Shown in pieces: positions 15,237 through 28,228 of a stretch of DNA of 29,676 nt. How positions within the stretch are numbered: the first letter of the stretch is position 1; each line of letters starts with the position of its first letter. The DNA is from a virus (lineage: Duplodnaviria > Heunggongvirae > Uroviricota > Caudoviricetes): positions 1-29,676 of the IMG/VR virus record IMGVR_UViG_2660238507_000002. One strand, 5' to 3'. A program made the position numbers and the translations under genes. The notes under the pieces are model-generated. The model was not told the origin of the DNA. It saw nothing but the letters and a program-made list of their open reading frames with translations, and did not search any database.

Positions 15237-17003
15237 ATGAACACCACACTGACACCCGCAGATCTCGATCCCCGTCGGCAGGCCATGCTGCTGTACTTTC
15301 AGGGATACCGCGTCGCCCGCATTGCTGAAATGCTGGGCGAGAAAGTTGCAACCGTTCACAGCTGGAAAAAACGCGACAAGTGGGGTGACTATGGGCCGCT
15401 GGATCAGATGCAGCTCACCACCGCCGCACGCTACTGCCAGCTCATTATGAAGGAGCACAAAGAAGGGAAAGATTTCAAAGAGATTGACCTGCTGGCGCGC
15501 CAGTCGGAACGCCACGCGCGGATCGGCAAGTTTAACAATGGCGGCAACGAAGCCGACTTAAACCCTAACGTCGCCAACCGTAACAAAGGCCCGCGCCGTC
15601 AGCCGGAAAAGAATGTTTTCACCGATGAACAGATTGAGAAGCTGGAAGAAATCTTTCATTCCTCCATGTTCAACTACCAGCGCCACTGGTGGGAAGCCGG
15701 AAAAACCAACCGCATCCGCAACCTGCTGAAGTCACGCCAGATCGGCGCGACCTTCTATTTTGCCCGTGAAGCCCTGATTGACGCCCTGCTGACCGGACGT
15801 AACCAGATTTTCCTTTCCGCCAGTAAGGCACAGGCCCACGTCTTTAAGCAGTACATCATCGACTTCGCCAAAGAAGTGGATGTGGAACTGAAAGGCGATC
15901 CGATGGTGCTTCCTAACGGGGCCACGCTTTACTTCCTCGGCACCAATGCCCGCACGGCCCAGAGTTATCACGGCAACCTGTATCTGGATGAATATTTCTG
16001 GATACCGAAATTTCAGGAGCTACGCAAAGTGGCTTCCGGTATGGCTATTCACAAGAAATGGCGGCAGACCTATTTTTCCACACCATCCAGCCTGACCCAC
16101 AGTGCTTATCCGTTCTGGTCCGGTGCGCTGTTCAACCGCGGACGCAACAAAGCCGACAAGGTGGACATCGACCTGTCCCACAACAATCTGGCCCCCGGCC
16201 TGCTGTGCGCTGACGGGCAATACCGCCAGATAGTCACCGTCGAAGATGCGGTGCGCGGCGGCTGTAACCTGTTCGACCTTGACCAGTTGCGCATGGAATA
16301 CAGCCCGGACGAATACCAGAACCTGCTGATGTGCGAGTTTGTGGACGATCTCGCGTCCGTGTTCCCGCTCAGCGAACTACAGGCGTGCATGGTGGACAGC
16401 TGGGAAGTCTGGACCGACTTTCATGCACTGGCGCTGCGCCCGTTTGGCTGGCGCGAAGTGTGGATCGGTTATGACCCGGCAAAAGGTACGCAGAACGGCG
16501 ACAGCGCCGGATGCGTAGTGGTGGCACCGCCAGCCGTGCCGGGCGGTAAGTTCCGCATTCTTGAGCGTCACCAGTGGCGCGGGATGGACTTCCGCGCCCA
16601 GGCTGACGCCATCAAAAAACTGACTGAACAGTACAACGTGACATACATCGGTATCGACTCAACCGGCGTCGGTCACGGGGTTTACGAGAACGTGAAAGCG
16701 TTTTTTCCTGCCGTCCGGGAGTTTGTCTACAACCCCAACGTTAAAAATGCCCTGGTACTCAAGGCCTACGACATTATCAGTCACCGCCGTCTGGAGTTTG
16801 ACGCCGGACACACCGACATAGCGCAGTCATTTATGGCAATCCGTCGCGCCACCACCGCCAGCGGCAACCGCCCGACCTATGAAGCCAGCCGCAGCGAAGA
16901 AGCCAGCCATGCCGATCTGGCGTGGGCAACAATGCACGCACTGTTTAACGAACCGCTGCAGGGCGAGTCCGCCAATACCAGCAATATTGTGGAGATTTTT
17001 TGA
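15237..17003 (+). CDS. P: terminase ATPase (large) subunit P
   Basis: 588-aa ORF; translation resembles P2 gpP. Confidence 0.85.
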   Translation: MNTTLTPADLDPRRQAMLLYFQGYRVARIAEMLGEKVATVHSWKKRDKWGDYGPLDQMQLTTAARYCQLIMKEHKEGKDFKEIDLLARQSERHARIGKFNNGGNEADLNPNVANRNKGPRRQPEKNVFTDEQIEKLEEIFHSSMFNYQRHWWEAGKTNRIRNLLKSRQIGATFYFAREALIDALLTGRNQIFLSASKAQAHVFKQYIIDFAKEVDVELKGDPMVLPNGATLYFLGTNARTAQSYHGNLYLDEYFWIPKFQELRKVASGMAIHKKWRQTYFSTPSSLTHSAYPFWSGALFNRGRNKADKVDIDLSHNNLAPGLLCADGQYRQIVTVEDAVRGGCNLFDLDQLRMEYSPDEYQNLLMCEFVDDLASVFPLSELQACMVDSWEVWTDFHALALRPFGWREVWIGYDPAKGTQNGDSAGCVVVAPPAVPGGKFRILERHQWRGMDFRAQADAIKKLTEQYNVTYIGIDSTGVGHGVYENVKAFFPAVREFVYNPNVKNALVLKAYDIISHRRLEFDAGHTDIAQSFMAIRRATTASGNRPTYEASRSEEASHADLAWATMHALFNEPLQGESANTSNIVEIF

Positions 17004-18028
17004 TGGGAAAGAGTAAGAAGAACCGCGCTGTGTCGACGAACCAGATTCAGCATAAAAGCCAGACTTCAGCCGAAGCATTCAGCTTTGGCGATCCCGTTCC
17101 TGTTCTGGACCGCCGCGAACTGCTGGACTATGTGGAATGCGTACAGACAGATCGCTGGTATGAGCCGCCAGTGAGTTTTGACGGACTGGCGCGAACCTTC
17201 CGCGCTGCCGTGCATCACAGTTCACCAATTGCGGTGAAATGCAACATTCTGACCAGTACCTACATCCCTCACCCGCTTCTCAGCCAGCAGGCTTTTTCAC
17301 GTTTTGTGCAGGACTATCTGGTATTTGGTAACGCATACCTGGAGAAACGCACGAACCGGTTCGGTGAAGTTATCGCCCTTGAGCCTGCTCTGGCAAAATA
17401 CACCCGACGTGGGTTAGACCTGGATACCTACTGGTTTGTGCAATACGGCATGACAACCCAGCCGTATCAGTTCACGAAAGGCAGCATCTTTCATCTGATG
17501 GAACCCGATATCAACCAGGAGATCTACGGCCTGCCCGGTTATCTTTCTGCCATTCCGTCAGCCCTGCTCAACGAGTCCGCCACGCTGTTCCGACGCAAAT
17601 ATTATATTAATGGCAGCCATGCAGGATTCATAATGTACATGACCGATGCCGCTCAGAACCAGGAGGATGTGAACAACCTCCGCAACGCGATGAAAAGCGC
17701 CAAAGGGCCAGGCAACTTCCGCAACCTGTTTATGTACTCGCCTAACGGCAAAAAAGACGGGCTTCAGATCATCCCATTGTCAGAAGTCGCGGCGAAAGAT
17801 GAGTTTTTGAATATCAAAAATGTTAGTCGCGATGACATGATGGCGGCACACCGCGTGCCGCCGCAGATGATGGGGATTATGCCTAATAATGTTGGGGGAT
17901 TTGGGGATGTGGAGAAGGCAAGCAAAGTGTTTGTGCGGAATGAGTTAATGCCATTGCAAAAGAATTTTGAATCACTGAATAACTGGGCTGGAAAAGAAAT
18001 TATTTCATTTAATGACTACTGTTTTTAA
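17000..18028 (+). CDS. Q: portal (capsid vertex) protein Q
   Basis: 342-aa ORF overlapping P stop, as P2 gpQ. Confidence 0.85.
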   Translation: MMGKSKKNRAVSTNQIQHKSQTSAEAFSFGDPVPVLDRRELLDYVECVQTDRWYEPPVSFDGLARTFRAAVHHSSPIAVKCNILTSTYIPHPLLSQQAFSRFVQDYLVFGNAYLEKRTNRFGEVIALEPALAKYTRRGLDLDTYWFVQYGMTTQPYQFTKGSIFHLMEPDINQEIYGLPGYLSAIPSALLNESATLFRRKYYINGSHAGFIMYMTDAAQNQEDVNNLRNAMKSAKGPGNFRNLFMYSPNGKKDGLQIIPLSEVAAKDEFLNIKNVSRDDMMAAHRVPPQMMGIMPNNVGGFGDVEKASKVFVRNELMPLQKNFESLNNWAGKEIISFNDYCF

Positions 18029-18033
18029 GAAAA

Positions 18034-18057
18034 TGCGCATGGAAATTTTCATGCGCA
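18034..18057. terminator. palindromic hairpin between convergent Q and reverse transcriptase genes
   Basis: TGCGCATGGAAA / TTTTCATGCGCA near-perfect palindrome; on the minus strand it is followed by ATTTTCTT. Confidence 0.5.
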
Positions 18058-18063
18058 CACACG

Positions 18064-18993
18064 TTATTCTGATACTACAGGTTGATATCTCTGGATTTCA
18101 TCAATCAGCTCTGATGAATATTTCGCACAAAGCCTATTAATAAATAATGGCTCAACACTTTTGCAATACGATAAATATCCTTGAAGAAATAGCCTTTTCT
18201 TCTCATCAAGAGCCTCCCATTTAAAAATAAGCGATTTAACCATCCTTTTTTTATCTCTCCCTAAGGATACTCCACCATCTGTTGTCAAAGTCACACCCGT
18301 AACCATCATTTTATTTTTCTTTGACATATGCAGTGTCTTTTTTCTATTAATCCATAGTTTTGATGGGTATTTCAAATTTTTTAAATTCGAGCGTAAAAAA
18401 GGTGGTATTTGCTTCAATACATTTTCTTCGTTTGTTGAGAAGTACATATCATCAGCATAGCGTGTATATGTTATACCTTTTGAAAGACAAAATTCATTCA
18501 ATATATGATCTAATTCATAGCATATAGCATTGCTTACCACAGGGGAACTAACAGCACCCATAGTCAGTCTCCCGTTAAAGCATACTATTTTTACCAGCAA
18601 ATCAGTATCATCCTTTGACCAATCATCACTGAAGAAATGCTTGTTGTCGTTTATAAATCTCTCAACATCACTTTTCTTAATTGAATCAAAAAAACCTTCA
18701 AAGTCCATCTTAAGCATAAAACGTTTAGCTTTGTGAATGCTTGCATGTTTGAACACTGATGAACCCTGCTGATATGCTACAGCATTTGGATGAATCGGCA
18801 ATTTCGACAGAACATTATCATGAAGTAATCTCTGCAAAACTTTTAATTCTTTAGAGGGCTGATAGACGATTCTTGTCCCACCGCCTTTTTTAGGTACAGA
18901 AAATTTACCATAATGCGAGTTAGCATCATTTGCAACTTTTAATATAAAATCAGCTTCTAACAGTAAAACTTTAGCTAGATACTCAATTAACAT
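18064..18993 (-). CDS. retron-type reverse transcriptase
   Basis: 309-aa ORF with RT motifs: N-terminal FSVPKKGGGTRIVYQP, motif A KMDFEGFFDSI, motif B GAVSSPVVSNAICY, motif C YTRYADDMYF, and retron-typical VTGV downstream; AT-rich; ATG 1 nt after upstream gene stop. Confidence 0.85.
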   Translation of the reverse strand: MLIEYLAKVLLLEADFILKVANDANSHYGKFSVPKKGGGTRIVYQPSKELKVLQRLLHDNVLSKLPIHPNAVAYQQGSSVFKHASIHKAKRFMLKMDFEGFFDSIKKSDVERFINDNKHFFSDDWSKDDTDLLVKIVCFNGRLTMGAVSSPVVSNAICYELDHILNEFCLSKGITYTRYADDMYFSTNEENVLKQIPPFLRSNLKNLKYPSKLWINRKKTLHMSKKNKMMVTGVTLTTDGGVSLGRDKKRMVKSLIFKWEALDEKKRLFLQGYLSYCKSVEPLFINRLCAKYSSELIDEIQRYQPVVSE

Positions 18994-18994
18994 A

Positions 18995-20047
18995 TCACAT
19001 GATCCTTTCTAATTCTGCTTTGAATTTAGATATCATTATTAAATCGGATAATGATCTAGCTCTACTTCGTTGAATACTTTCAACTAAATCTTTCATCTTT
19101 TCATGATTAAAAAATTTAATATAATCGACACATGAATAATGGGTCACGCCCTCAAATCGACTTTCCTTAAAAATCCCAAGGGCAACTCCAATAGAAACAA
19201 CAAATGAAATATTTTTATTAATTTTATAATTTATCAACCTACCTGTGATATTAATAATCTCAGGAATTGTTATTGGACCTAAAGAAGATATAACAACGAG
19301 CACAAAAAATAAAAAAATTTTTGGTGAATATTTGTAATCACCTATTGAATTTGTATTAGTTATGTTTGATTGAACTTTCCTATTTAGCCTTTCATTTATT
19401 TTAGGCATACACGTTAAAATTGTCTCAAATTCAGTATAGATTGTAGGGCCAAATTTGGATTCACTATCAACCCATTTTACGGGCCCTGTATTGATAAATG
19501 ACTTATGACTTTCAAACTTTTTATCTAATATAGGAAGAAGTTTTTTACGTAAAACAGGACTTAATGAAAATGCGCCCAATTCAGCTACAGTGCCATAACT
19601 CTCTACGAGAATAATTACCACATCAGAAAAATCCGCAAGCCATTCTTCAAGTGATAGCGCATTCACATTACTATGAGTTCCTAAATTGCTAATTACTTCC
19701 CATGCTAATTCTGCTCGAAAAGTAACAAATTCTTTATGATGCTTAGCAATATATTTTTCCAGCATCCCTCTATTTGAACAATAAGTCTCATCTCCTCCAC
19801 AAATAAATAATACTTTTGGCAGGATATAATTAAAAGAATTCAAGTTACTTGGAAAAAAACTTGAAATAAAATTTTCTTTTGCTCGTAAATATCTAGGATG
19901 TTTAAACCACATAACAATTAATGCCCATACAAGAGTTCCCGAGACACAAGTTAGCCTGGTGTCTATAAATGACACAAGGCTAACTTGTGTCGAGATACCA
20001 AGCAATCCATACGAGTTGGCTAAACACCAACCACTAGAAAGTAACAT
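18995..20047 (-). CDS. retron effector candidate: NDT/SLOG-like domain followed by two predicted transmembrane helices
   Basis: ORF translationally coupled to RT; contains ..VVIILVESYGTVAELGAF.. (resembles nucleoside deoxyribosyltransferase-like Glu motif) and hydrophobic stretches KIFLFFVLVVISSLGPITIPEII and ISFVVSIGVALGIF. Start uncertain: first 46 codons overlap a strong hairpin and look non-protein-like, so true start may be ATG at 19912. Confidence 0.6.
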   Translation of the reverse strand: MLLSSGWCLANSYGLLGISTQVSLVSFIDTRLTCVSGTLVWALIVMWFKHPRYLRAKENFISSFFPSNLNSFNYILPKVLFICGGDETYCSNRGMLEKYIAKHHKEFVTFRAELAWEVISNLGTHSNVNALSLEEWLADFSDVVIILVESYGTVAELGAFSLSPVLRKKLLPILDKKFESHKSFINTGPVKWVDSESKFGPTIYTEFETILTCMPKINERLNRKVQSNITNTNSIGDYKYSPKIFLFFVLVVISSLGPITIPEIINITGRLINYKINKNISFVVSIGVALGIFKESRFEGVTHYSCVDYIKFFNHEKMKDLVESIQRSRARSLSDLIMISKFKAELERIM

Positions 20048-20110
20048 ATTGAATGTACTTTCCTGCTAAGGGCACAGCTAGGCTAGCACTAACATACGGA
20101 TTATTCAAGT
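19915..20110 (-). ncRNA. candidate retron msr-msd non-coding RNA (extent approximate)
   Basis: Position immediately upstream of effector-RT operon; contains very stable hairpin at 19941-19993 as expected for an msd stem; a1/a2 repeats and branching G not identified. Confidence 0.3.
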
Positions 20111-20129
20111 GAATGCAGCTCAGCGCGCG

Positions 20130-20148
20130 CTCGTATCCCCGCCACGCC
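20130..20148. other. candidate cos site (cohesive-end sequence)
   Basis: Minus-strand GGCGTGGCGGGGATACGAG resembles the P2 19-nt cohesive end GGCGAGGCGGGGAAAGCAC as I recall it (about 14/19 identical); GC-rich island between two AT-rich inserts. Confidence 0.3.
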
Positions 20149-20193
20149 TGCCCGCTTTATGTAGTAGTTTTCATGCAGGTGCATGATCTACGC

Positions 20194-20217
20194 AAAAGCC
20201 CGCCAGTTCTGGCGGGC
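20194..20217 (-). terminator. rho-independent terminator ending the upstream two-gene cassette
   Basis: GCCCGCC-agaact-GGCGGGC hairpin followed by TTTT on the minus strand. Confidence 0.7.
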
Positions 20218-20265
20218 CTTAGCAAAAACGATCCTCAAACGATCATGCGATCTCATGCAGCATAG

Positions 20266-21108
20266 TCATGCACGATCATTTGACTCAGCATCTGCTGCAC
20301 GCTTGCTGCGCGAAGATGCACTTTTACTACCAATCTTTCGACAGTTCTTTCTATCCCTGGCTTCATTTTCTTTAAATTTGTTATATGTCTCAGTATCAAA
20401 AAACGAAATTGTTTCAACCTCATCTTTTGGTATGAGCACACGGAAATCTTCGATATTAAGCCGAGACATTCCACTTATCACACCACTATCAAGATAATGT
20501 TGGTGATAGTTAGTCGTGATACTAATCGTTAGATCATCTTTATCCCGATATCCGCTTAACATCGGGAGAAGTTCAAGGTGTTCTGAAAGCCCGTTTTCTA
20601 ACGCCGGACAAGTAACAAGACCAACATAGATTTTGCGAGACGACAGAGTTGCTATGATCGGAAACTGTCTTGCGGACGCTTCCATGAGTAATGATTCGAA
20701 AGCGTTATTACCCACAGCTTTAGCTAAGGCATCCCAGCGACGATCTCCACGTGATGTGCGTAACTTATTTCCAAAACCTGAAATCGCAGCGAGAACAATT
20801 GAAATCATAACCCATGCTATCTGTTTGATTTCATTTATTCTTTGAAGTTTGTCTTTCGATGAAGACAACATGCCATTAAAACTGTCAGGTGTTAGATTCA
20901 AGGCATTAGCCAGCCAACGAAACCCTCCGCTGACGTTCAAAATAAAGGTGAAAAAACCGCCAAGGAGAAAAAAAACGATACCCCAGGCAGCCACAAAAAA
21001 ATAAGCGTCCCAGCCGTTGGAACGCTTATATCGGTATCTTGTTGAAAGTGATAGGTTTACATAAATAAAACCACTAACCAAAATCACTGCTAAAAGTAAT
21101 GTTGCCAT
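20266..21108 (-). CDS. hypothetical membrane protein (3 predicted N-terminal TM helices plus ~160-aa soluble C-terminal domain)
   Basis: 280-aa ORF, AT-rich, start overlaps upstream gene stop (TAATG); no recognisable family. Confidence 0.65.
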   Translation of the reverse strand: MATLLLAVILVSGFIYVNLSLSTRYRYKRSNGWDAYFFVAAWGIVFFLLGGFFTFILNVSGGFRWLANALNLTPDSFNGMLSSSKDKLQRINEIKQIAWVMISIVLAAISGFGNKLRTSRGDRRWDALAKAVGNNAFESLLMEASARQFPIIATLSSRKIYVGLVTCPALENGLSEHLELLPMLSGYRDKDDLTISITTNYHQHYLDSGVISGMSRLNIEDFRVLIPKDEVETISFFDTETYNKFKENEARDRKNCRKIGSKSASSRSKRAADAESNDRA

Positions 21109-21323
21109 TATCTGGTTCTATTAGTTTTCTCTTTTACAGTGCTCGTTTTGATGCCTTCAAGCTTATCCATCTGTGCCTTGATGGCATCCATTGCTCTTTT
21201 GTTAGACAAGTCTACGGACACAAAACCATCTTTACTAAGATTGAGTTTGTCCTGGTTCTCTTTAAGAACCCTTGCCAGACGTTCAACTGGGTTACCCAGG
21301 CTAAATGCGGCGATGCTTGACAT
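21108..21323 (-). CDS. hypothetical small soluble protein, first gene of two-gene cassette
   Basis: 71-aa ORF with strong RBS AAGGGGGAG 5 nt upstream of ATG; translationally coupled to the 280-aa gene. Confidence 0.6.
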   Translation of the reverse strand: MSSIAAFSLGNPVERLARVLKENQDKLNLSKDGFVSVDLSNKRAMDAIKAQMDKLEGIKTSTVKEKTNRTR

Positions 21324-21593
21324 AACTCCCCCTTTTCACATGGCGCGGAAGTCTACACTCCGACGCCTACAACCTCAACAGATTATCTTTAAAATTTAGA
21401 CAACAATATCATCTGTTGATTTCGTTACTTAAACTTAAGTTCAATGCGCTCGATCATGCAAGCGGTTTCTTAAGAACTGTTAATTTCCTGGCATATATAG
21501 TGGTTAAGATAACAAATTGACACTAACGCCTCGCATAGCTCGTTGTTCAACCTTGCTGACGCCAGAAGCAAGTTCAGACGCCAGCAACGTTTC

Positions 21594-21827
21594 TTAATGC
21601 AGCCAGCTGTCGTCTTCCCACACCTTCTGCATAATTTTCATCACTTGCTTCCTTTCTTCGTCCAGTTGCAGTCCGGTCAGTTCCACACCGTTAGAGCTAC
21701 CTTTACGGATACGAATTACCGTTTTGGGATATAGGGGGCGCAGATTGCGGTAAAGCTCGGATTCAAGGGCGTCCAGGGTAGACTGGCTAATCTTCTGCTC
21801 TTTATCGATCATTATTTCAATGCGCAT
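21594..21827 (-). CDS. DinI-like / Tum-like protein
   Basis: Translation from MRIEIMIDKEQ... resembles DinI (MRIEVTIAK..); own RBS GAGGGGA upstream of ATG at 21827; ORF-track start at 21899 judged an upstream artefact. Confidence 0.7.
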   Translation of the reverse strand: MRIEIMIDKEQKISQSTLDALESELYRNLRPLYPKTVIRIRKGSSNGVELTGLQLDEERKQVMKIMQKVWEDDSWLH

Positions 21828-21837
21828 AAAAGTCCCC

Positions 21838-22026
21838 TCAGCTGATGACATCCATTGAGCGGTTGTATTCGTGGCTTCTGATTTTTGCCATGAGTTCATC
21901 TGTCAGTTCAGAAACCCACTGCAGGGCCAACCCCTTCTCTTCATCACTACACTCACTAGCCGCTACAAGCTTAAGAAAAAAATCAATGCGTTGGAGCTTC
22001 AAAGACTCCCAAAAATAGTCCTGCAT
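21838..22026 (-). CDS. hypothetical small protein, first gene of LexA-box operon
   Basis: 62-aa ORF from ATG at 22026 preceded by AGGAGG; upstream part of ORF-track frame overlaps the LexA box and is probably non-coding. Confidence 0.5.
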   Translation of the reverse strand: MQDYFWESLKLQRIDFFLKLVAASECSDEEKGLALQWVSELTDELMAKIRSHEYNRSMDVIS

Positions 22027-22067
22027 CTTTCCTCCTATGACACCACAAGCAATACTGTATGCATAAC

Positions 22068-22087
22068 CACTGTTTATATTTACAGTA
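22068..22087. promoter_or_regulatory. LexA (SOS) box
   Basis: CACTGTTTATATTTACAGTA = CTGT-N8-ACAG consensus, ~45 bp upstream of the small ORF / DinI-like operon; adjacent partial box TACTGTATGCATAACCAC. Confidence 0.7.
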
Positions 22088-22179
22088 TATAATAATCTTA
22101 CTGATGTAAAACGTTTTTTTACGTTCATCAGCCTGATATGCCGGGTATTATTAAGAGCACGAATTGTTAACCCGCGTAA

Positions 22180-24594
22180 TTAATACAGGTTCCGCCACTT
22201 ATCATCTTCCTGCAAACGCTGGTTCCGATAGAAGATACGCAGGCCTGCTCCTGACGGAATGCTGCCGCCGCGAAGGAGTAAATCGACCTCTTTCTCGCTG
22301 CCATCAAATCCTCTGGACTTCAGTTCATAGACGAGCTGCTGTCGTTGATGGTCTGTAATTCGCTGTTTGTAGTCTCTACGCCGTTTCGGTTTCACCAGGC
22401 GTAACCTTGCAGCCAGTTCCCGGCGCTCTTTTTTGTTCATACTGTGCAGGTAATCGTGCAACTCCTTGTCATCCATACGGGTGATATCCGTTCTGGTATC
22501 CCCATCAGCTGATTTGTCTTTCCCTTGTTGGTACAAATTTTCAGCAAGGGGACAGTTATTGCCACGAGTCCAAGGGGCGCAAGCGCCCTGGTCGGCTGCC
22601 GCCTCCTGAACGTCAACGGCTTTACGGACCATTTTCCACTTCACTGCATGAGTGCAGATCTTGCCCTCTGCAATGGGTGACCAGATGCCATAAATACGAA
22701 TACCGTGATCGCCATAGGCGGTCGGCTCTTCGTTGATTTCATAAGCGGTTCTGATGAGGTGATATTTACGGGGAACCAGTACGCCGCCCTGCTTCATGAT
22801 GTAGGTGGCAAAGCAACCAGCATCAGCTGCAGCCAGAATGGCATCAAGGCGCGGGTTATCCAGTACCGGCGCACCTGCTTTTTTGTCACCCTGTTGCCTT
22901 GCCGCCTGACCAGCCAGCAATCGCAGTTCACGGTAAGCCTGACGCCCCGGAATGCCAAAGAAGCGGAATTGCTGAACACGATGCAGAGACGCCCAGGCAT
23001 TAACGTATTCAGCGTTATCACGCAGAGATTTACCCGTTTCCTTGCTGATCTCGCCAGCCAGACCACGCCCGTCAATGTTCTTACTGATGTATTTCGCGAT
23101 GTAGCTTGTTGGTGTACCTTTGCGCGGGTTTATCAGCTCAGACTTAAAGCGTGGTCCTGTGTTATTACCCAGCTCCTCGCGGTCTTCACGAATGGCAAAC
23201 TTACGCAACAAAGCAGTAATGGCGCGGCGATCTTTTTTGCGCATAAAACACAACAGGTGCCAGTGAACTGTACCGTCATGATGCGGCTCAGCCACCCGCA
23301 CGCCATACCAGCGCAATCCGGCTTTGTACATCGCCTTACGAAATGCAGCAAACATGCCGACCAGATAATCACTGCTTTGTCTTACCGTCGCATTTGTCCA
23401 GTTCGGGTTGGGCCTGCCGTTATTTAGCGTGGAATGGAAACGTGACGGACAGGTGATGGTGTAGAAAACGGCGCAGTCACCGCGCATTTCCGCGATAAGC
23501 TCCAGACCTTTAACACATGCCATCATCTCATTGCGGCGATGCGCCGGGTTGCTACTACTGGCGTTTACCACGTCCTCCATATCCAGCGTGTCGCCGTCTT
23601 CGTTCACCAGTTCATGAGAACGGAAAAACTCCAGCGACTTACGGCGCTGCTCACGTTTATGCATCACGGCTTCATAGCTGACATAGGGAGATGCTTTTTT
23701 GCTGACCAGGCAAACAGCACGCAACTGCTCTTCCCGCCATTCGAAACGCATCTTCCATAATTTCCGATACCACCAGTCGGCGCACAACATACGCGCCAGC
23801 GAACCCGGAATGAGTTCATAGGGTACGGGTTTACGGCGGTTTCTTTTCCGGCGGAGTTGCTCAAACGCAGGAGGGATGACATCCAGACGCAGGGTTTCCG
23901 CCGCCACCCTTTCCCATGTCTTGCGGATTTCTTCTGGCTTAACGTCATCGGTGGCATACAAATCACCACAAGCTGCATCAAGGCACATGCTCATATGCGC
24001 GGCAACAAGGGTAGACAGGCGCTTCACCTGATCCTGACTCATTTCAGGCAAGATCAGCAGGCCGTCCAGCCCTTCATGGCTTGCCATAAAACGAAAAGAT
24101 GCAGATAGCTGGCTGTCGCGTACATGCTCTAGTCGTTCCAGACATGGTTTAATCGTCTCACGCAAATAGCGGGAATAAGCCTTTGGCCTGCCCAGGCTGC
24201 TGAAGTATTCAATACGTTGCATCAGCGGCTTGCTGATATGGGAAGGCTGGGCGTTAACGTCCGCCAGTATGACCATGTCCGGATTAAAACGCTGCTGCTC
24301 ATGCACCAGCTTTGCCCGGCTAATGAGCTTATCCTGCTCCATTTCGCGCTGGACAGGATCACGGGATTCATTAAAGAAATAACGCTCCCAGACCTGATCA
24401 CTCAGTGCCTCGCGGCGCAGTTGTTCCTGCTTGTTATCGGCAGCGTACAGAGTGATCAGGTTTGAAAGCGCAGAAACCGGCGCAACTTCCGCCGGGTCCA
24501 GATAAGGGTTAATCGCCTTTTTCGGGCTGTTCCATGAGAATGCTGCGGCGGCCTCGTTAAAGCCGCTGCAGTTGTTCATATCAGCATGTCTCAT
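22180..24594 (-). CDS. A: replication initiation protein A (rolling-circle endonuclease)
   Basis: 804-aa ORF at the position of P2/186 gene A; start overlaps dam stop. Confidence 0.8.
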
Positions 24595-25448
24595 GCACGT
24601 ACTCCGTACACGGCAGAACTATCCACGCCACGCGAAGGATCAAATCCCACCCAGCAGCGCGCCCCAGAAACAGCGATGATTTCTGTTGCAGATTTACTCT
24701 CACCAGCTGCTACGCCGATGCTGCGTTTTGCCTTGATGTAGTGGTGAGTAAAATTGCGATACAGCGAACGGATCAGGGATGTGTCACTGTTAGAAACAAT
24801 GACCGGATGTCCTTCTGATGACCGATGTTCAAGAACGGATGCCAGGTGATACTGGTCATCTTCAGTGAAACCATCAGTGTGATAGCTGGAAAACGTACCG
24901 TCATACGGCGGATCGCAATACACCACATCCCCCGCCTTCAACATCGCCAGCGTTTCATCAAAGCTGGCGCAGATAAACGTTGCTCGTTGGGCTTTCTCTG
25001 CAAATGCGCGAATTTCTTTTTCAGGGAAATACGGATTTTTATAATTACCGTAGGGAATGTTGAAATGCCCGCTCTTGTTATAGCGACATAACCCACGGTA
25101 ACCGTGACGATTGAGATACAGGAAATATACCGCTTTCATGAAATCAGTAATTTCAGTTGAGTAATTAAACTCCTGCCTTATGTTGTAATAAGCCACCTCC
25201 CTGTTTGCTTCCTTAAATAAAACTCTGGCGCGAGATATAAACGATTCACAATCAGCGGCAACCTTTTTATAGAGGTTGATTAAATCAGGATTAATATCCG
25301 CAACCAGATAGCTGGGATAATCCGTCTCCATCATCACAGCACAGGAACCCGCGAAAGGTTCAACCAGTCGCGGGCCAGCTGGAAGATGTTTTTTCAGTTC
25401 GGACATTACGGCGGTTTTATTTCCCGCCCATTTCAGGATGGTGCTCAT
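24591..25448 (-). CDS. dam: DNA adenine methyltransferase (Dam-like, GATC)
   Basis: Motif [11 protein letters not shown] and motif IV DPPY; start taken at ATG 25448 ([11 protein letters not shown]), overlapping TraR-like stop. Confidence 0.85.
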
Positions 25449-25672
25449 ACAGCACCTCCGTTGTAATGTTTGCCTTTCAGCTCTGCGATTTCCTGACAGG
25501 TAATGCAAAGCTGCACACCTGGAATGGCGCGGCGGCGTGCTGGCGGAATTGGCGCTTCACACTCAATGCAAAGCACGCGGGACACGCCCGGCGTTTTGGC
25601 ACGGGCAGCACGGATATGGCGCTGGCGTTCTTCTTCAACGCGCTGCTGTACGAGATCCATTGCATCAGCCAT
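25445..25672 (-). CDS. TraR/DksA-family C4 zinc-finger protein
   Basis: 75-aa ORF with CxxC...CxxC (CIECEAPIPPARRRAIPGVQLCITCQ). Confidence 0.8.
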   Translation of the reverse strand: MADAMDLVQQRVEEERQRHIRAARAKTPGVSRVLCIECEAPIPPARRRAIPGVQLCITCQEIAELKGKHYNGGAV

Positions 25673-26735: not shown

Positions 26736-27254
26736 TCACAGCAAACCGAATGAAGCACCGAGGCCAGTCACGGTATCAACTGCACTCGCCATCGCAGGGT
26801 TAGCCTGTAAACGGGCCTGCAATGAAACAGCAGCCAACGCCATCAGTCGTGTTACAGAGTTAATGCTGCTGATAGCATCACGACGACCTGCACTGGTTTT
26901 TACATCGCCAGATACCGCACCTGCAGCAACACGCCCGATCTCTGCGGTTGCACTCATGACGTAATGTGGCAGTTTCTCTTTTGCCACCTCATTAATTGGT
27001 ACGCATGGCAGGCAGTGAATCTGTGCCAGAAAACCATCTACCAACGTTGAATCTTCAGTCAGATCGGTAAGCAGCCAGATTTCTGGTGCGGTTAATAAAT
27101 GAGGTTGAGCTGGGTTCAGCTTGTTCCGCAGAATCTGCACATTCATGCCCGCACGTTCTGCCAGTTGCACCAGATTGTGGCGCAGTGCGAATGCACGACA
27201 GGCTTCATCAAAATGTGGATGTTTGGAAACTTGGTAATCAAACATGGTTTTCAA
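26736..27254 (-). CDS. cII: CII-like lysogeny establishment regulator (186 type)
   Basis: Translation (..[43 protein letters not shown]..) resembles phage 186 CII; true start may be the internal Met. Confidence 0.75.
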
Positions 27255-27309: not shown

Positions 27310-27513
27310 TTAAGCAGACAAAGCATCAACAGTCAGAGCAGCCAGGTTAATCATTACCTTTTCACGTTTTTTGTCTTTACGAAGACGATGACGAGGTAGT
27401 CGGCCATCAGCCAACATGTCGTTAATCGTATCAATAGAAAGGCCAGTCAGTTCGCTATAACGTTCGATTGTGACATGTGGTGTATTCAGAGTAATTGAAA
27501 TGTTAGGTGTCAT
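27310..27513 (-). CDS. apl: Apl/Cox-like excisionase and repressor of the lysogenic promoter
   Basis: 67-aa basic ORF first in the rightward early operon, divergent from cI; RBS AAGGAA. Confidence 0.7.
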
Positions 27514-27658
27514 AAGGCAACATTCCTTCTAGATATGGCTTGTGGCGAGCCGTTGTTTGTCGTGATTAGTAGTGAAGGCTCCAAAAGAACACTTCTGGTT
27601 CAACTTTAAGATCGCTTTTGGAATCTGTCAACGAATTTTGGATTTCTTTGGAGGACTT
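27514..27658. promoter_or_regulatory. lysis-lysogeny switch region (pR / pL promoters and operators)
   Basis: Intergenic region between divergently oriented apl-cII and cI-int operons; individual -10/-35 elements not confidently assigned. Confidence 0.5.
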
Positions 27659-28228
27659 GTGGATTTCAATAGCGGCGGTAAGAAAGCCATAGAACGTTTA
27701 GTTGAAGCATATGGGTTCGGTACCCGTCAGGCTCTCTGTGATCATTTAGGTGTTTCTAAGAGCACCATGGCAACGCGCTATATGCGTGATATTTTTCCAG
27801 CAGATTGGGTAATCCAGTGCGCCCTTGAAACCGGCACCTCGCTTAATTGGCTAACAACAGGGCATGGTTCAAAGCAAGCATCAGCAAATACAAATACTAT
27901 AGAAGTAGAAAAATATTTATTGTCTGATGGAGCATTGCAGAAAGACGGTTTTTATATTTTTGATAAGGAATTTCTACCCTCTACGTTTAAAAAACCTTTT
28001 GTCATCACAGATAACAATTCTGAATTTATTTGTGATAAAGAATTTGATGATATACGTGATGGTAAATGGGTAATAAGTATTGATGGCGAAATAACGATCC
28101 GTGACATTACTCGTTTACCCGGTGGAAGAATCTTCGTCGAGGGTGGAAACAGAGCCTTCGAATGCAAGATAGAAGACATTGAAATAATTGGTAAAATTAT
28201 AAGTTTAACAGTCAAGTATGTTAAATAG
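27659..28228 (+). CDS. cI: CI-like immunity repressor (186 type)
   Basis: GTG start preceded by GGAGGA RBS; N-terminal helix-turn-helix (TRQALCDHLGVSKSTMATRY); position between switch region and int. Confidence 0.7.
   Translation: MDFNSGGKKAIERLVEAYGFGTRQALCDHLGVSKSTMATRYMRDIFPADWVIQCALETGTSLNWLTTGHGSKQASANTNTIEVEKYLLSDGALQKDGFYIFDKEFLPSTFKKPFVITDNNSEFICDKEFDDIRDGKWVISIDGEITIRDITRLPGGRIFVEGGNRAFECKIEDIEIIGKIISLTVKYVK

What the first reader, a model, noticed from the sequence alone, without database searches (positions are those of the whole stretch)
21594..22087. SOS-controlled operon: consensus LexA box upstream of a small ORF and a DinI/Tum-like gene
A perfect CTGT-N8-ACAG box (22070-22085) with a second partial box sits about 45 bp upstream of a 62-aa ORF followed by a DinI-like gene, each with its own RBS. 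In phage 186 a LexA-repressed tum gene of this type provides SOS-dependent prophage induction, which supports a 186-like (not P2-like) induction circuit.
Basis: partly seen in the sequence, partly recalled or inferred. Interest (0 to 1): 0.4.

Follow-up and report, generated by a model that had tools for sequence, protein, structure and literature searches.

The report
LexA-controlled prophage induction operon (split tum)
This is the DNA-damage switch of a Fels-2/186-like E. coli prophage: a LexA-repressed promoter drives a 62-residue antirepressor and a DinI-like helper, and near-identical copies have already been shown experimentally to trigger prophage induction.

Summary
CTGTTTATATTTACAG lies at 22070-22085. 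The full 20-mer matches the LexA consensus at 17 of 20 positions, and no shuffle of 100 did as well. It sits 43 nt upstream of a 62-aa ORF (22026..21838, minus strand), which is followed by a 77-aa DinI-family gene (21827..21594). Each gene has its own ribosome-binding site.

The Tum-equivalent effector is the small ORF, not the DinI-like gene. Profile searches link the ORF to the N-terminal half of 186 Tum. It is 98% identical to ECHS_RS04495, the gene called tum in E. coli HS prophage DuoHS. Deleting that gene, or making lexA non-inducible, blocks mitomycin C induction (PMC12055606). The DNA of the module is 96.8% identical to Fels-2. The layout matches tumA/tumB of PSP3.

Together the two boxes form a double overlapping SOS operator like that of colicin E1, and this is conserved in all six relatives checked that carry this tumA subtype.

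The immunity region is 186-type (CI, Apl, CII). The module occurs in 1124 of 5426 complete E. coli genomes.

Verdict: already known. Two details are worth a small follow-up: the double operator, and a nearly invariant antirepressor paired with divergent CI repressors.

The parts
22105..22110 (-). -35 hexamer TTTACA of the p95-like promoter
   Evidence: It lies 17 bp upstream of TACTGT. The same layout is annotated for 186 p95. It is conserved as TTTACA, TTCACA or TTCCCA in the window, SEN8, ESSI-2, ev015 and PSP3, by my reading of the sequences. The generic promoter scan missed it because the -10 matches only 3 of 6.
22082..22087 (-). -10 hexamer TACTGT, which is also the left arm of LexA box 1
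   Evidence: The 186 record annotates the same hexamer as the p95 -10, inside its LexA site.
22068..22087 (-). LexA box 1: TACTGTAAATATAAACAGTG (17 of 20 to consensus)
   Evidence: 0 of 100 shuffles. Conserved in all 10 relatives.
22053..22072 (-). LexA box 2: CAGTGGTTATGCATACAGTA. It overlaps box 1 by 5 nt, giving a colicin-type double SOS operator.
   Evidence: Pattern CTGT-N9-CAGTGG-N8-ACAG at 22055-22085. The same architecture is at the ColE1 plasmid site L006:5063-5093. It is conserved in Fels-2, SEN8, SopEPhi, Yersinia MLG42, and Klebsiella phi4.1 and phi12.1.
22031..22036 (-). Ribosome-binding site AGGAGG of the 62-aa gene
   Evidence: It lies 4 nt before the ATG at 22026.
21838..22026 (-). 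tumA-like gene: 62-aa antirepressor, predicted to be a helical hairpin
   Evidence: phrog_698, E 2.6e-37, with cross-hits to the PHROGs matched by the N-terminal half of 186 Tum. A family HMM hits 186 Tum residues 5-43 at 33.7 bits. It is 98% identical to ECHS_RS04495, the DuoHS tum gene. AlphaFold mean pLDDT is 90, with helices at 2-23 and 28-61.
21834..21839 (-). Ribosome-binding site GAGGGG of the DinI-like gene, overlapping the tumA stop codon
   Evidence: The two genes are in different reading frames.
21594..21827 (-). tumB-like gene: 77-aa DinI-family protein
   Evidence: Pfam PF06183, E 6.6e-23. It is 78% identical to PSP3 TumB and 41% identical to 186 Tum residues 71-145.
21552..21588 (-). 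Hairpin just after the DinI-like stop codon; possible weak terminator or module boundary
   Evidence: The stem is about 11 bp with no U tract (the z-score of -2.15 is for the whole 101-nt stretch folded). The terminator scan was negative. Homology with Fels-2 and DuoHS ends at the stop codon.
27659..28228 (+). CI repressor, 189 aa from the GTG with a GGAGG ribosome-binding site; the inferred target of the antirepressor
   Evidence: It carries PF07022 and PF16452. It is 87% identical to DuoHS CI and 33% to 186 CI. The start codon was chosen by alignment and ribosome-binding site.
27310..27513 (-). Apl/Cox-like excisionase-repressor of the lytic operon
   Evidence: phrog_575, E 1e-29.
26736..27254 (-). 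CII-like lysogeny establishment activator
   Evidence: PF06892, E 3.4e-42; phrog_101.

Best explanation
This is the SOS induction operon of a Fels-2/DuoHS-type (186-like) P2-family prophage of E. coli.

In the lysogen, LexA occupies a double overlapping operator that covers the -10 hexamer and the likely transcription start of a p95-like promoter, just downstream of the replicase gene gpA. This keeps the operon silent. DNA damage activates RecA, LexA cleaves itself, and the promoter fires.

The first product is a 62-residue helical hairpin, homologous to the N-terminal half of 186 Tum and equivalent to PSP3 TumA. It binds the 186-type CI repressor stoichiometrically and stops it from binding its operators. 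The lytic promoter then opens, giving Apl and the early genes.

The second product is a DinI-like protein equivalent to TumB and to the C-terminal half of Tum. It is probably translationally coupled to the first. It acts on RecA filaments to shape the strength or duration of the SOS signal, and is not the switch itself.

Shown here: the sequence anatomy, the homologies, and conservation of the operator. Shown by others on near-identical modules: dependence on LexA, requirement for tum, and DNA-damage induction of the transcript. Inferred: direct binding of the small protein to CI in this phage, binding of two LexA dimers, and the role of the DinI-like protein.
For: - Operator: the 20-mer matches the consensus at 17 of 20 positions, with 0 of 100 shuffles as good. 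The double-box pattern is at 22055-22085 and matches the ColE1 site. [quoted passage not shown]
- Conservation: the box and promoter layout are present in 10 relatives from 8 named genera of Peduoviridae.
- Small ORF: the PHROG cross-hits bridge it to the 186 Tum N-terminal half. The ORF hits phrog_698 at 2.6e-37, phrog_8554 at 1.2e-8 and phrog_1993 at 0.002. Tum hits phrog_1993 at 1e-22, phrog_8554 at 1.4e-11 and phrog_698 at 2.4e-5. An HMM built from diverse ORF62 relatives hits Tum residues 5-43 at 33.7 bits, E 9e-7 with Z set to 1e6.
- DinI-like gene.
- Known split layout: PSP3 annotates tumA ('UV induction of prophage') and tumB in the same position. Lemire 2011 states that Fels-2 and PSP3 have tum split in two, and that the upstream PSP3 gene carries the antirepressor activity.
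- Near-identical modules: the module DNA is 96.8% identical to Fels-2. ORF62 is 98% identical to ECHS_RS04495 and CI is 87% identical to DuoHS CI.
- Experiments by others: delta-tum and lexA(Ind-) both abolish mitomycin C induction of DuoHS. Fels-2 STM2727 was induced 5.5 to 14.8-fold by the mutagen MX, alongside known LexA-regulon genes.
- 186 mechanism: Tum inhibits and sequesters CI, and is expressed from the LexA-regulated p95 promoter (PMC7708051).
Against: - BLASTP finds no similarity between ORF62 and 186 Tum or PSP3 TumA, so the homology rests on profile methods only. PSP3 TumA was not hit even by the broader HMM.
- No LexA binding, transcript or protein interaction was measured for this exact sequence.
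- The -10 hexamer is weak (3 of 6) and the generic promoter scan reported nothing.
- Box 2 alone has 6 mismatches to the consensus.
- The Phollow deletion of tum could in principle have affected the downstream DinI-like gene, although it was an in-frame deletion that joined the start and stop codons.
- No clear terminator ends the operon.
Confidence: 0.9

Rival explanations
1. The DinI-like protein is the induction effector, which is the implicit reading of 'DinI/Tum-like gene'. The small ORF would be an accessory or leader peptide.
For: The DinI-like part is the only portion that BLASTP matches to 186 Tum. Database annotations label it 'SOS induction modulator' or 'tum' in some records.
Against: The gene deleted as tum in DuoHS is ECHS_RS04495, which is the 62-aa ORF and not the DinI-like ECHS_RS04500. 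In PSP3 the upstream gene carries the antirepressor activity. The 186 record describes its truncated DinI-only products only as modulators of SOS induction. ESSI-2 and ev015 have the LexA box and a tumA-like gene but no DinI-like gene downstream.
Confidence: 0.04
2. The operon is a lysogen-benefit SOS module that modulates host RecA and the SOS response or serves repair. It would have no role in switching the prophage, which would be induced another way or not at all.
For: DinI-family proteins are host SOS modulators (established knowledge). The operon sits beside a cargo region that carries a retron.
Against: CI belongs to the 186 family. Its Peptidase_S24 match is below threshold, at 16.1 bits against a cut-off of 23.3, so an antirepressor route is expected. 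The 98%-identical tum gene is required for DuoHS induction. The position of the operon and its operator are conserved with 186 p95-tum.
Confidence: 0.04
3. The LexA-like box is a chance AT-rich palindrome in an intergenic region, and the two genes are transcribed by read-through from the early operon via gpA.
For: The minimal CTGT-N8-ACAG motif is expected 0.51 times per window by chance. No canonical sigma-70 promoter or terminator was detected between gpA and the ORF.
Against: The full 20-mer never occurred in 100 shuffles. The box is conserved at the same position in relatives whose intergenic DNA is otherwise unrelated. The Fels-2 orthologue behaves as a LexA-regulon gene, and lexA(Ind-) blocks DuoHS induction.
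Confidence: 0.02

Closest known systems
E. coli HS prophage DuoHS tum (ECHS_RS04495) and DinI-like gene ECHS_RS04500, and the equivalent Fels-2 genes STM2728 and STM2726.1/STM2727
   Same: It is the same module. The small protein is 98% identical to DuoHS and 95% to Fels-2. Box 1 is identical, and box 2 differs only in its spacer. The ribosome-binding sites and gene order are the same. The DNA is 96.8% identical to Fels-2. CI is 87% identical to DuoHS CI.
   Different: CI is only about 40-42% identical to Fels-2 CI. The DNA downstream of the DinI-like stop codon differs: a hairpin, two unknown ORFs and a type II-A retron here, against STM2726 in Fels-2.
Salmonella phage PSP3 tumA/tumB
   Same: It has two cistrons behind a LexA box downstream of gpA. 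TumB is 78% identical. The upstream gene is the antirepressor.
   Different: PSP3 TumA is not detectably similar by BLASTP or by the family HMM. PSP3 has a single LexA box. Its tumA and tumB are in the same frame, separated by a stop codon, whereas here the two genes are in different frames.
Coliphage 186 p95-tum (SOS operon)
   Same: The promoter is LexA-repressed, with the box over the -10. The position after gene A is the same. Homologous N-terminal antirepressor and C-terminal DinI-like parts are present. The switch is CI/Apl/CII.
   Different: In 186 the two parts are fused into one 146-aa protein, and the DinI-like part is also made from internal starts. 186 has a single LexA box. The N-terminal parts are 18% identical.
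Colicin operon double SOS operator (for example ColE1 cea)
   Same: It has two overlapping LexA boxes in the layout CTGT-N9-CAGTGG-N8-ACAG. By my count, 25 of 31 positions are identical to the ColE1 site.
   Different: It controls a prophage antirepressor, not a colicin. The promoter and genes are unrelated. Binding of two LexA dimers was not tested here.
Gifsy and Fels-1 LexA-controlled antirepressor operons (dinI-gfoA/gftA)
   Same: LexA-repressed operons pair a small antirepressor with a DinI homologue (PMC3121763).
   Different: The gene order is reversed, with dinI first. They belong to lambdoid phages with unrelated repressors. No sequence relationship was tested here.

Membership tests
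186 Tum / PSP3 TumA-TumB SOS antirepressor module | A LexA operator overlaps the promoter immediately upstream | tested here: met
   The match is 17 of 20 to consensus, it overlaps the -10 TACTGT, and it is conserved in 10 relatives.
186 Tum / PSP3 TumA-TumB SOS antirepressor module | Located directly downstream of, and on the same strand as, the gpA replicase gene of a P2-family phage | tested here: met
186 Tum / PSP3 TumA-TumB SOS antirepressor module | The antirepressor part is homologous to the N-terminal half of 186 Tum | tested here: met
   Profile evidence only: PHROG cross-hits and an HMM of ORF62 relatives against Tum residues 5-43 at 33.7 bits. BLASTP was negative. PSP3 TumA itself was not reached.
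186 Tum / PSP3 TumA-TumB SOS antirepressor module | A DinI-like part lies downstream of the antirepressor part, either fused or as a second cistron | tested here: met
186 Tum / PSP3 TumA-TumB SOS antirepressor module | The cognate repressor is of the 186 CI type, within a CI/Apl/CII switch | tested here: met
186 Tum / PSP3 TumA-TumB SOS antirepressor module | The protein binds CI and blocks its DNA binding, and is required for SOS induction | not testable with these tools
   Indirect support only. Deleting the 98%-identical DuoHS gene abolishes mitomycin C induction. The 186 mechanism is described in PMC7708051.
186 Tum / PSP3 TumA-TumB SOS antirepressor module | The transcript is induced by DNA damage in a LexA-dependent way | not testable with these tools
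   Indirect support only. Fels-2 STM2727 was induced 5.5 to 14.8-fold by MX. lexA(Ind-) blocks DuoHS induction.
DinI family (Pfam PF06183) | The match to the family profile exceeds the curated cut-off over its full length | tested here: met
   81.3 bits against a cut-off of 24.2, covering profile positions 1-63 of 63.
Colicin-type double overlapping SOS operator | Two LexA boxes share about 5 nt, in the layout CTGT-N9-CAGTGG-N8-ACAG | tested here: met
Colicin-type double overlapping SOS operator | Two LexA dimers bind together, giving tighter repression | not testable with these tools
   Known for colicin operators (PMC2994835). Not measured for this site.
P2-type non-inducible switch (C repressor/Cox, no SOS link) | A P2 C-type repressor is present, and there is no LexA-controlled antirepressor | tested here: not met
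   The repressor is of the 186 CI type (PF07022 and PF16452) and CII is present. A LexA-controlled tum module is present.

The most novel reading that the evidence does not exclude
Two features go beyond the textbook 186 picture and are not excluded.

(1) This clade has replaced the single p95 LexA box with a colicin-type double overlapping operator. That would set a higher or later SOS threshold for induction than in 186 and PSP3.

(2) The antirepressor is nearly invariant (84-98% identity) across phages whose CI repressors are only 37-58% identical to this one. Among the relatives checked whose antirepressor is at least 95% identical (Fels-2 and five others; DuoHS is closer throughout), the CI N-terminal DNA-binding domain stays 65-78% identical while the C-terminal domain is 23-41%. 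One antirepressor may therefore target the conserved N-terminal domain and cross-induce relatives with divergent CI repressors in polylysogens, as reported for Gifsy antirepressors.
Probability: 0.3. Interest if true: 0.45.

Novelty: already known. Interest (0 to 1): 0.15.

Why it matters
The result explains how a very common E. coli, Salmonella and Klebsiella prophage type senses DNA damage. The module is present in about one in five complete E. coli genomes.

It also has practical value for annotation. The 62-aa gene that actually triggers induction is labelled 'hypothetical protein' in every listed RefSeq E. coli record and in most phage records, and sometimes 'levan regulatory protein'. 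The Tum/SOS-modulator label is often placed on the DinI-like neighbour instead.

The prophage carries a retron beside this operon, so its inducibility bears on how that defence system spreads. None of this changes current understanding of the mechanism.

Tried and rejected
- BLASTP of the 62-aa ORF against 186 Tum and PSP3 TumA found no alignment. 186 Tum against PSP3 TumA also found none.
- Pfam and PADLOC gave no hit for the 62-aa ORF.
- An HMM of close homologues only (at least 80% identical) gave a weak 12.8 bits to Tum. It was replaced by a broader HMM.
- The exhaustive profile search found 84 representatives. Almost all are 50-100 aa, and I saw none fused to a DinI domain. It did not reach 186 Tum directly.
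- The generic promoter and terminator scan of 21300-22400 found nothing.
- An Rfam E-value scan of 17000-22300 found nothing.
- Foldseek of the AlphaFold model against the PDB gave only generic helical hairpins, none at E <= 0.001.
- I rejected the 96-aa ORF version (22128..21838) that many databases call. Its extension would run across the promoter and operator. The 62-aa form is conserved, with its own AGGAGG, in diverse genera.
- I rejected the 101-aa version of the DinI-like ORF (from 21899). It overlaps the small ORF, and PSP3 TumB and the 186 internal GTG product both begin at the MRI/VKV position.
- Bunny et al. 2002 (PMC151935) is not held in the library, so its content is cited only through Lemire 2011.
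- I did not compute the Lewis heterology index, because I could not retrieve the reference matrix. Mismatch counts, shuffles and conservation were used instead.

Full report
**Observation.** The finding lies on the minus strand, directly downstream of an 804-aa P2/186-type gpA replicase gene (24594..22180). CTGTTTATATTTACAG is at 22070-22085 and is the only CTGT-N8-ACAG in the window. That minimal motif is not significant on its own: 0.51 are expected by chance, and 40 of 100 shuffles had one. The full 20-mer at 22068-22087 reads TACTGTAAATATAAACAGTG on the coding strand. It differs from TACTGTATATATATACAGTA at 3 positions, and no shuffle of 100 gave such a match. The 62-aa ORF runs 22026..21838 with AGGAGG at 22031-22036. 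The DinI-like ORF runs 21827..21594, with GAGGGG at 21834-21839 overlapping the upstream TGA. The two genes are in different frames and 10 nt apart, so translational coupling is plausible.

**Promoter and operator.** The 186 record annotates p95 with -35 TTCACA, an 18-bp spacer and -10 TACTGT. The -10 is the left arm of its LexA site. The window has the same layout: TTTACA at 22105-22110, 17 bp, then TACTGT at 22082-22087. I extracted the 130 nt upstream of the homologous start codon from ten relatives: 186, PSP3, ESSI-2, ESSI2_ev015, SEN8, Fels-2, Yersinia MLG42, SopEPhi, and Klebsiella phi4.1 and phi12.1. Each has a LexA box whose 5' end lies 38-96 nt before the start codon. By my reading of those sequences, the window, SEN8, ESSI-2, ev015 and PSP3 also carry a TTTACA, TTCACA or TTCCCA hexamer 17-18 bp upstream of TACTGT. 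In 186, PSP3, ESSI-2 and ev015 the surrounding DNA is not otherwise alignable. This conservation is the strongest in-silico argument that the site functions.

**The second box.** It overlaps box 1 by 5 nt, and together they read CTGTAAATATAAACAGTGGTTATGCATACAG. This fits CTGT-N9-CAGTGG-N8-ACAG (0.02 expected per window). The ColE1 plasmid carries CTGTATATAAAACCAGTGGTTATATGTACAG at L006:5063-5093; from memory this is the cea (colicin E1) operator, which the plasmid's gene table does not list. [quoted passage not shown] The double layout is conserved in every relative checked that carries the MQD-type small protein: Fels-2, SEN8, SopEPhi, MLG42, phi4.1 and phi12.1. In contrast, 186, PSP3, ESSI-2 and ev015 have one box. 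Tighter or later derepression is an inference that I could not test.

**The DinI-like gene.** It matches Pfam DinI over the whole profile, at 81.3 bits against a cut-off of 24.2. It is 41% identical to 186 Tum residues 71-145 and 78% identical to PSP3 TumB. It begins exactly where 186 makes a 77-aa product from an internal GTG, which the record describes as 'truncated Tum - modulates SOS induction'.

**The 62-aa ORF.** BLASTP finds nothing against 186 Tum or PSP3 TumA, and Pfam has no family for it. Profile methods do connect it.
- The ORF hits phrog_698 (2.6e-37), phrog_8554 (1.2e-8) and phrog_1993 (0.002).
- The N-terminal 61 residues of 186 Tum hit phrog_1993 (1e-22), phrog_8554 (1.4e-11) and phrog_698 (2.4e-5).
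- An exhaustive profile search returned 84 representatives. Almost all are 50-100 aa, and I saw none fused to DinI.
- An HMM of 37 diverse members plus the ORF hits 186 Tum residues 5-43 colinearly at 33.7 bits, E 9e-7 for a nominal database of one million.

The shared core is a conserved Cys in a turn followed by (L/I)AL..(I/V)(A/S)E(L/I). AlphaFold gives a confident helical hairpin, with helices at 2-23 and 28-61 and a mean pLDDT of 90. There is no informative structural neighbour in the PDB. The ORF is therefore the stand-alone equivalent of the N-terminal half of Tum. ESSI-2 and ev015 carry this gene behind a LexA box with no DinI-like gene downstream. That fits the small protein being the essential part.

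**What is already known.** PSP3 is annotated with tumA ('similar to 5' end 186 tum; UV induction of prophage') and tumB ('similar to dinI and 3' end of 186 tum') in the same position. Lemire et al. 2011 state that Fels-2 and PSP3 have tum split in two. [quoted passage not shown] 2002 (PMC3121763).

- The window's module (21560-22180) is 96.8% identical in DNA to Fels-2.
- In Salmonella TA100, which carries Fels-2, STM2727 was induced 5.5 to 14.8-fold by the mutagen MX among LexA-regulon genes. STM2726-STM2727-STM2728 was scored as a responding operon (PMC2225428).
- ECHS_RS04495 is the 62-aa gene just upstream of the DinI-like ECHS_RS04500. It is 61/62 identical to the window's ORF.
- The window's CI is 87% identical to DuoHS CI, and the C-terminal 71 residues are identical.

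The window region itself is 100% identical to two E. coli chromosomes. The module occurs in 1124 of 5426 complete E. coli genomes. All listed records annotate it as 'DinI-like family protein | hypothetical protein | replication endonuclease'.

**Circuit type.** The immunity region has three components.
- A CI with PF07022 and PF16452. It probably starts at GTG 27659, giving 189 aa.
- A divergent Apl/Cox-like gene (27513..27310).
- A CII with PF06892 (27254..26736).

CI's Peptidase_S24 match is below threshold, consistent with induction through an antirepressor rather than repressor cleavage.

**Mechanism.** LexA represses the p95-like promoter through the double operator. SOS derepresses it. 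The 62-aa hairpin then sequesters CI, as 186 Tum does (PMC7708051), and the lytic operon opens. The DinI-like protein modulates RecA and the SOS signal. The anatomy and homologies are shown here. LexA dependence, the requirement for tum and DNA-damage induction are shown by others on orthologues that are 96-98% identical. Direct binding to CI, occupancy by two LexA dimers and the DinI-like role are inferred.

**An observation beyond the finding.** The small protein is 84-98% identical in phages whose CI is only 37-58% identical to the window's. I aligned CI from eight phages. Six of them have a small protein at least 95% identical and a clearly divergent CI: Fels-2, 813R9, Cartapus, phi14.1, Kp4860-7 and Kp4865-2. 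In these the CI N-terminal DNA-binding domain is 65-78% identical to the window's, but the C-terminal domain only 23-41%. DuoHS CI is close throughout (83% and 91%). For 186, whose Tum N-terminal half is only 18% identical, the CI N-terminal domain is 39% identical. This suggests, without showing, that the antirepressor contacts the N-terminal domain and could act across related prophages with divergent CI repressors.

**End of the operon.** No intrinsic terminator was found. An 11-bp hairpin without a U tract follows the stop codon at 21552-21588. Homology with Fels-2 and DuoHS ends at the stop codon. Whether transcription continues into the downstream cargo is open. In Fels-2 the next gene, STM2726, was grouped with the operon.

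**Verdict.** The system is already known, and near-identical copies have been characterised experimentally. Interest is low. The double operator and the invariant antirepressor are modest leads.

Noticed in passing
window 18064-20047 (- strand), plus the gap at 20048-20265: A type II-A retron sits in the cargo region downstream of the SOS operon. It comprises an NDT-like effector at 20047..18995 (PADLOC NDT_II-A, E 1.2e-53) and a reverse transcriptase at 18993..18064 (RT_II-A, E 4.4e-105; Pfam RVT_1). The 219-nt gap upstream is where msr/msd would be expected. Rfam reported nothing there.
   Followed up: partly
window 20266-21323 (- strand): Two cargo ORFs of unknown function lie between the DinI-like gene and the retron. 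One is 71 aa (phrog_9843). The other is 280 aa with hydrophobic N-terminal segments (phrog_3630). Neither has a Pfam or PADLOC hit. Homology with most relatives breaks at about 21523 or 21596, so this is a variable moron or defence hotspot.
   Followed up: partly
window 21838-22026 compared with 27659-28228; loci L007, L014-L020: The antirepressor is nearly invariant (84-98% identity) across phages whose CI is 37-58% identical to the window's. In six relatives with a clearly divergent CI and an antirepressor at least 95% identical, the CI N-terminal domain stays 65-78% identical and the C-terminal domain drops to 23-41%.
   Followed up: partly
L003 (Cronobacter phage ESSI-2) 1383-1700; L004 (ESSI2_ev015) 1380-1713: These phages have a LexA box and a tumA-like gene after gpA, but no DinI-like gene. 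The next genes are late genes. In ESSI-2 the tumA-like ORF is not annotated at all.
   Followed up: partly
window 21838-22128 (- strand): Many database entries call an extended version of the small gene, 84-101 aa, starting upstream of its own promoter and LexA operator. A few name it 'levan regulatory protein'. All listed RefSeq E. coli records call it 'hypothetical protein'. The experimentally defined tum function is therefore not propagated in annotation.
   Followed up: yes
window 27572-28228 (+ strand): The mechanical ORF for CI is 218 aa from GTG 27572. Alignment with DuoHS CI, and a GGAGG ribosome-binding site, point to GTG 27659 as the real start, giving 189 aa.
   Followed up: yes
window 24591-25508 (- strand): An ORF overlaps the start of gpA and is syntenic with the 'DNA adenine methylase' of DuoHS and Fels-2. 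The Fels-2 note calls its counterpart 'retron EC67 DNA adenine methylase'-like. I did not run it against Pfam.
   Followed up: no
window 22103-22129 (- strand): A short inverted repeat, GATGAACGTAAAAAAACGTTTTACATC, lies between the gpA stop codon and the promoter and overlaps the -35 hexamer. It could be a weak terminator for the early operon. It is conserved in Fels-2 and DuoHS, with variation in the length of the A run.
   Followed up: no
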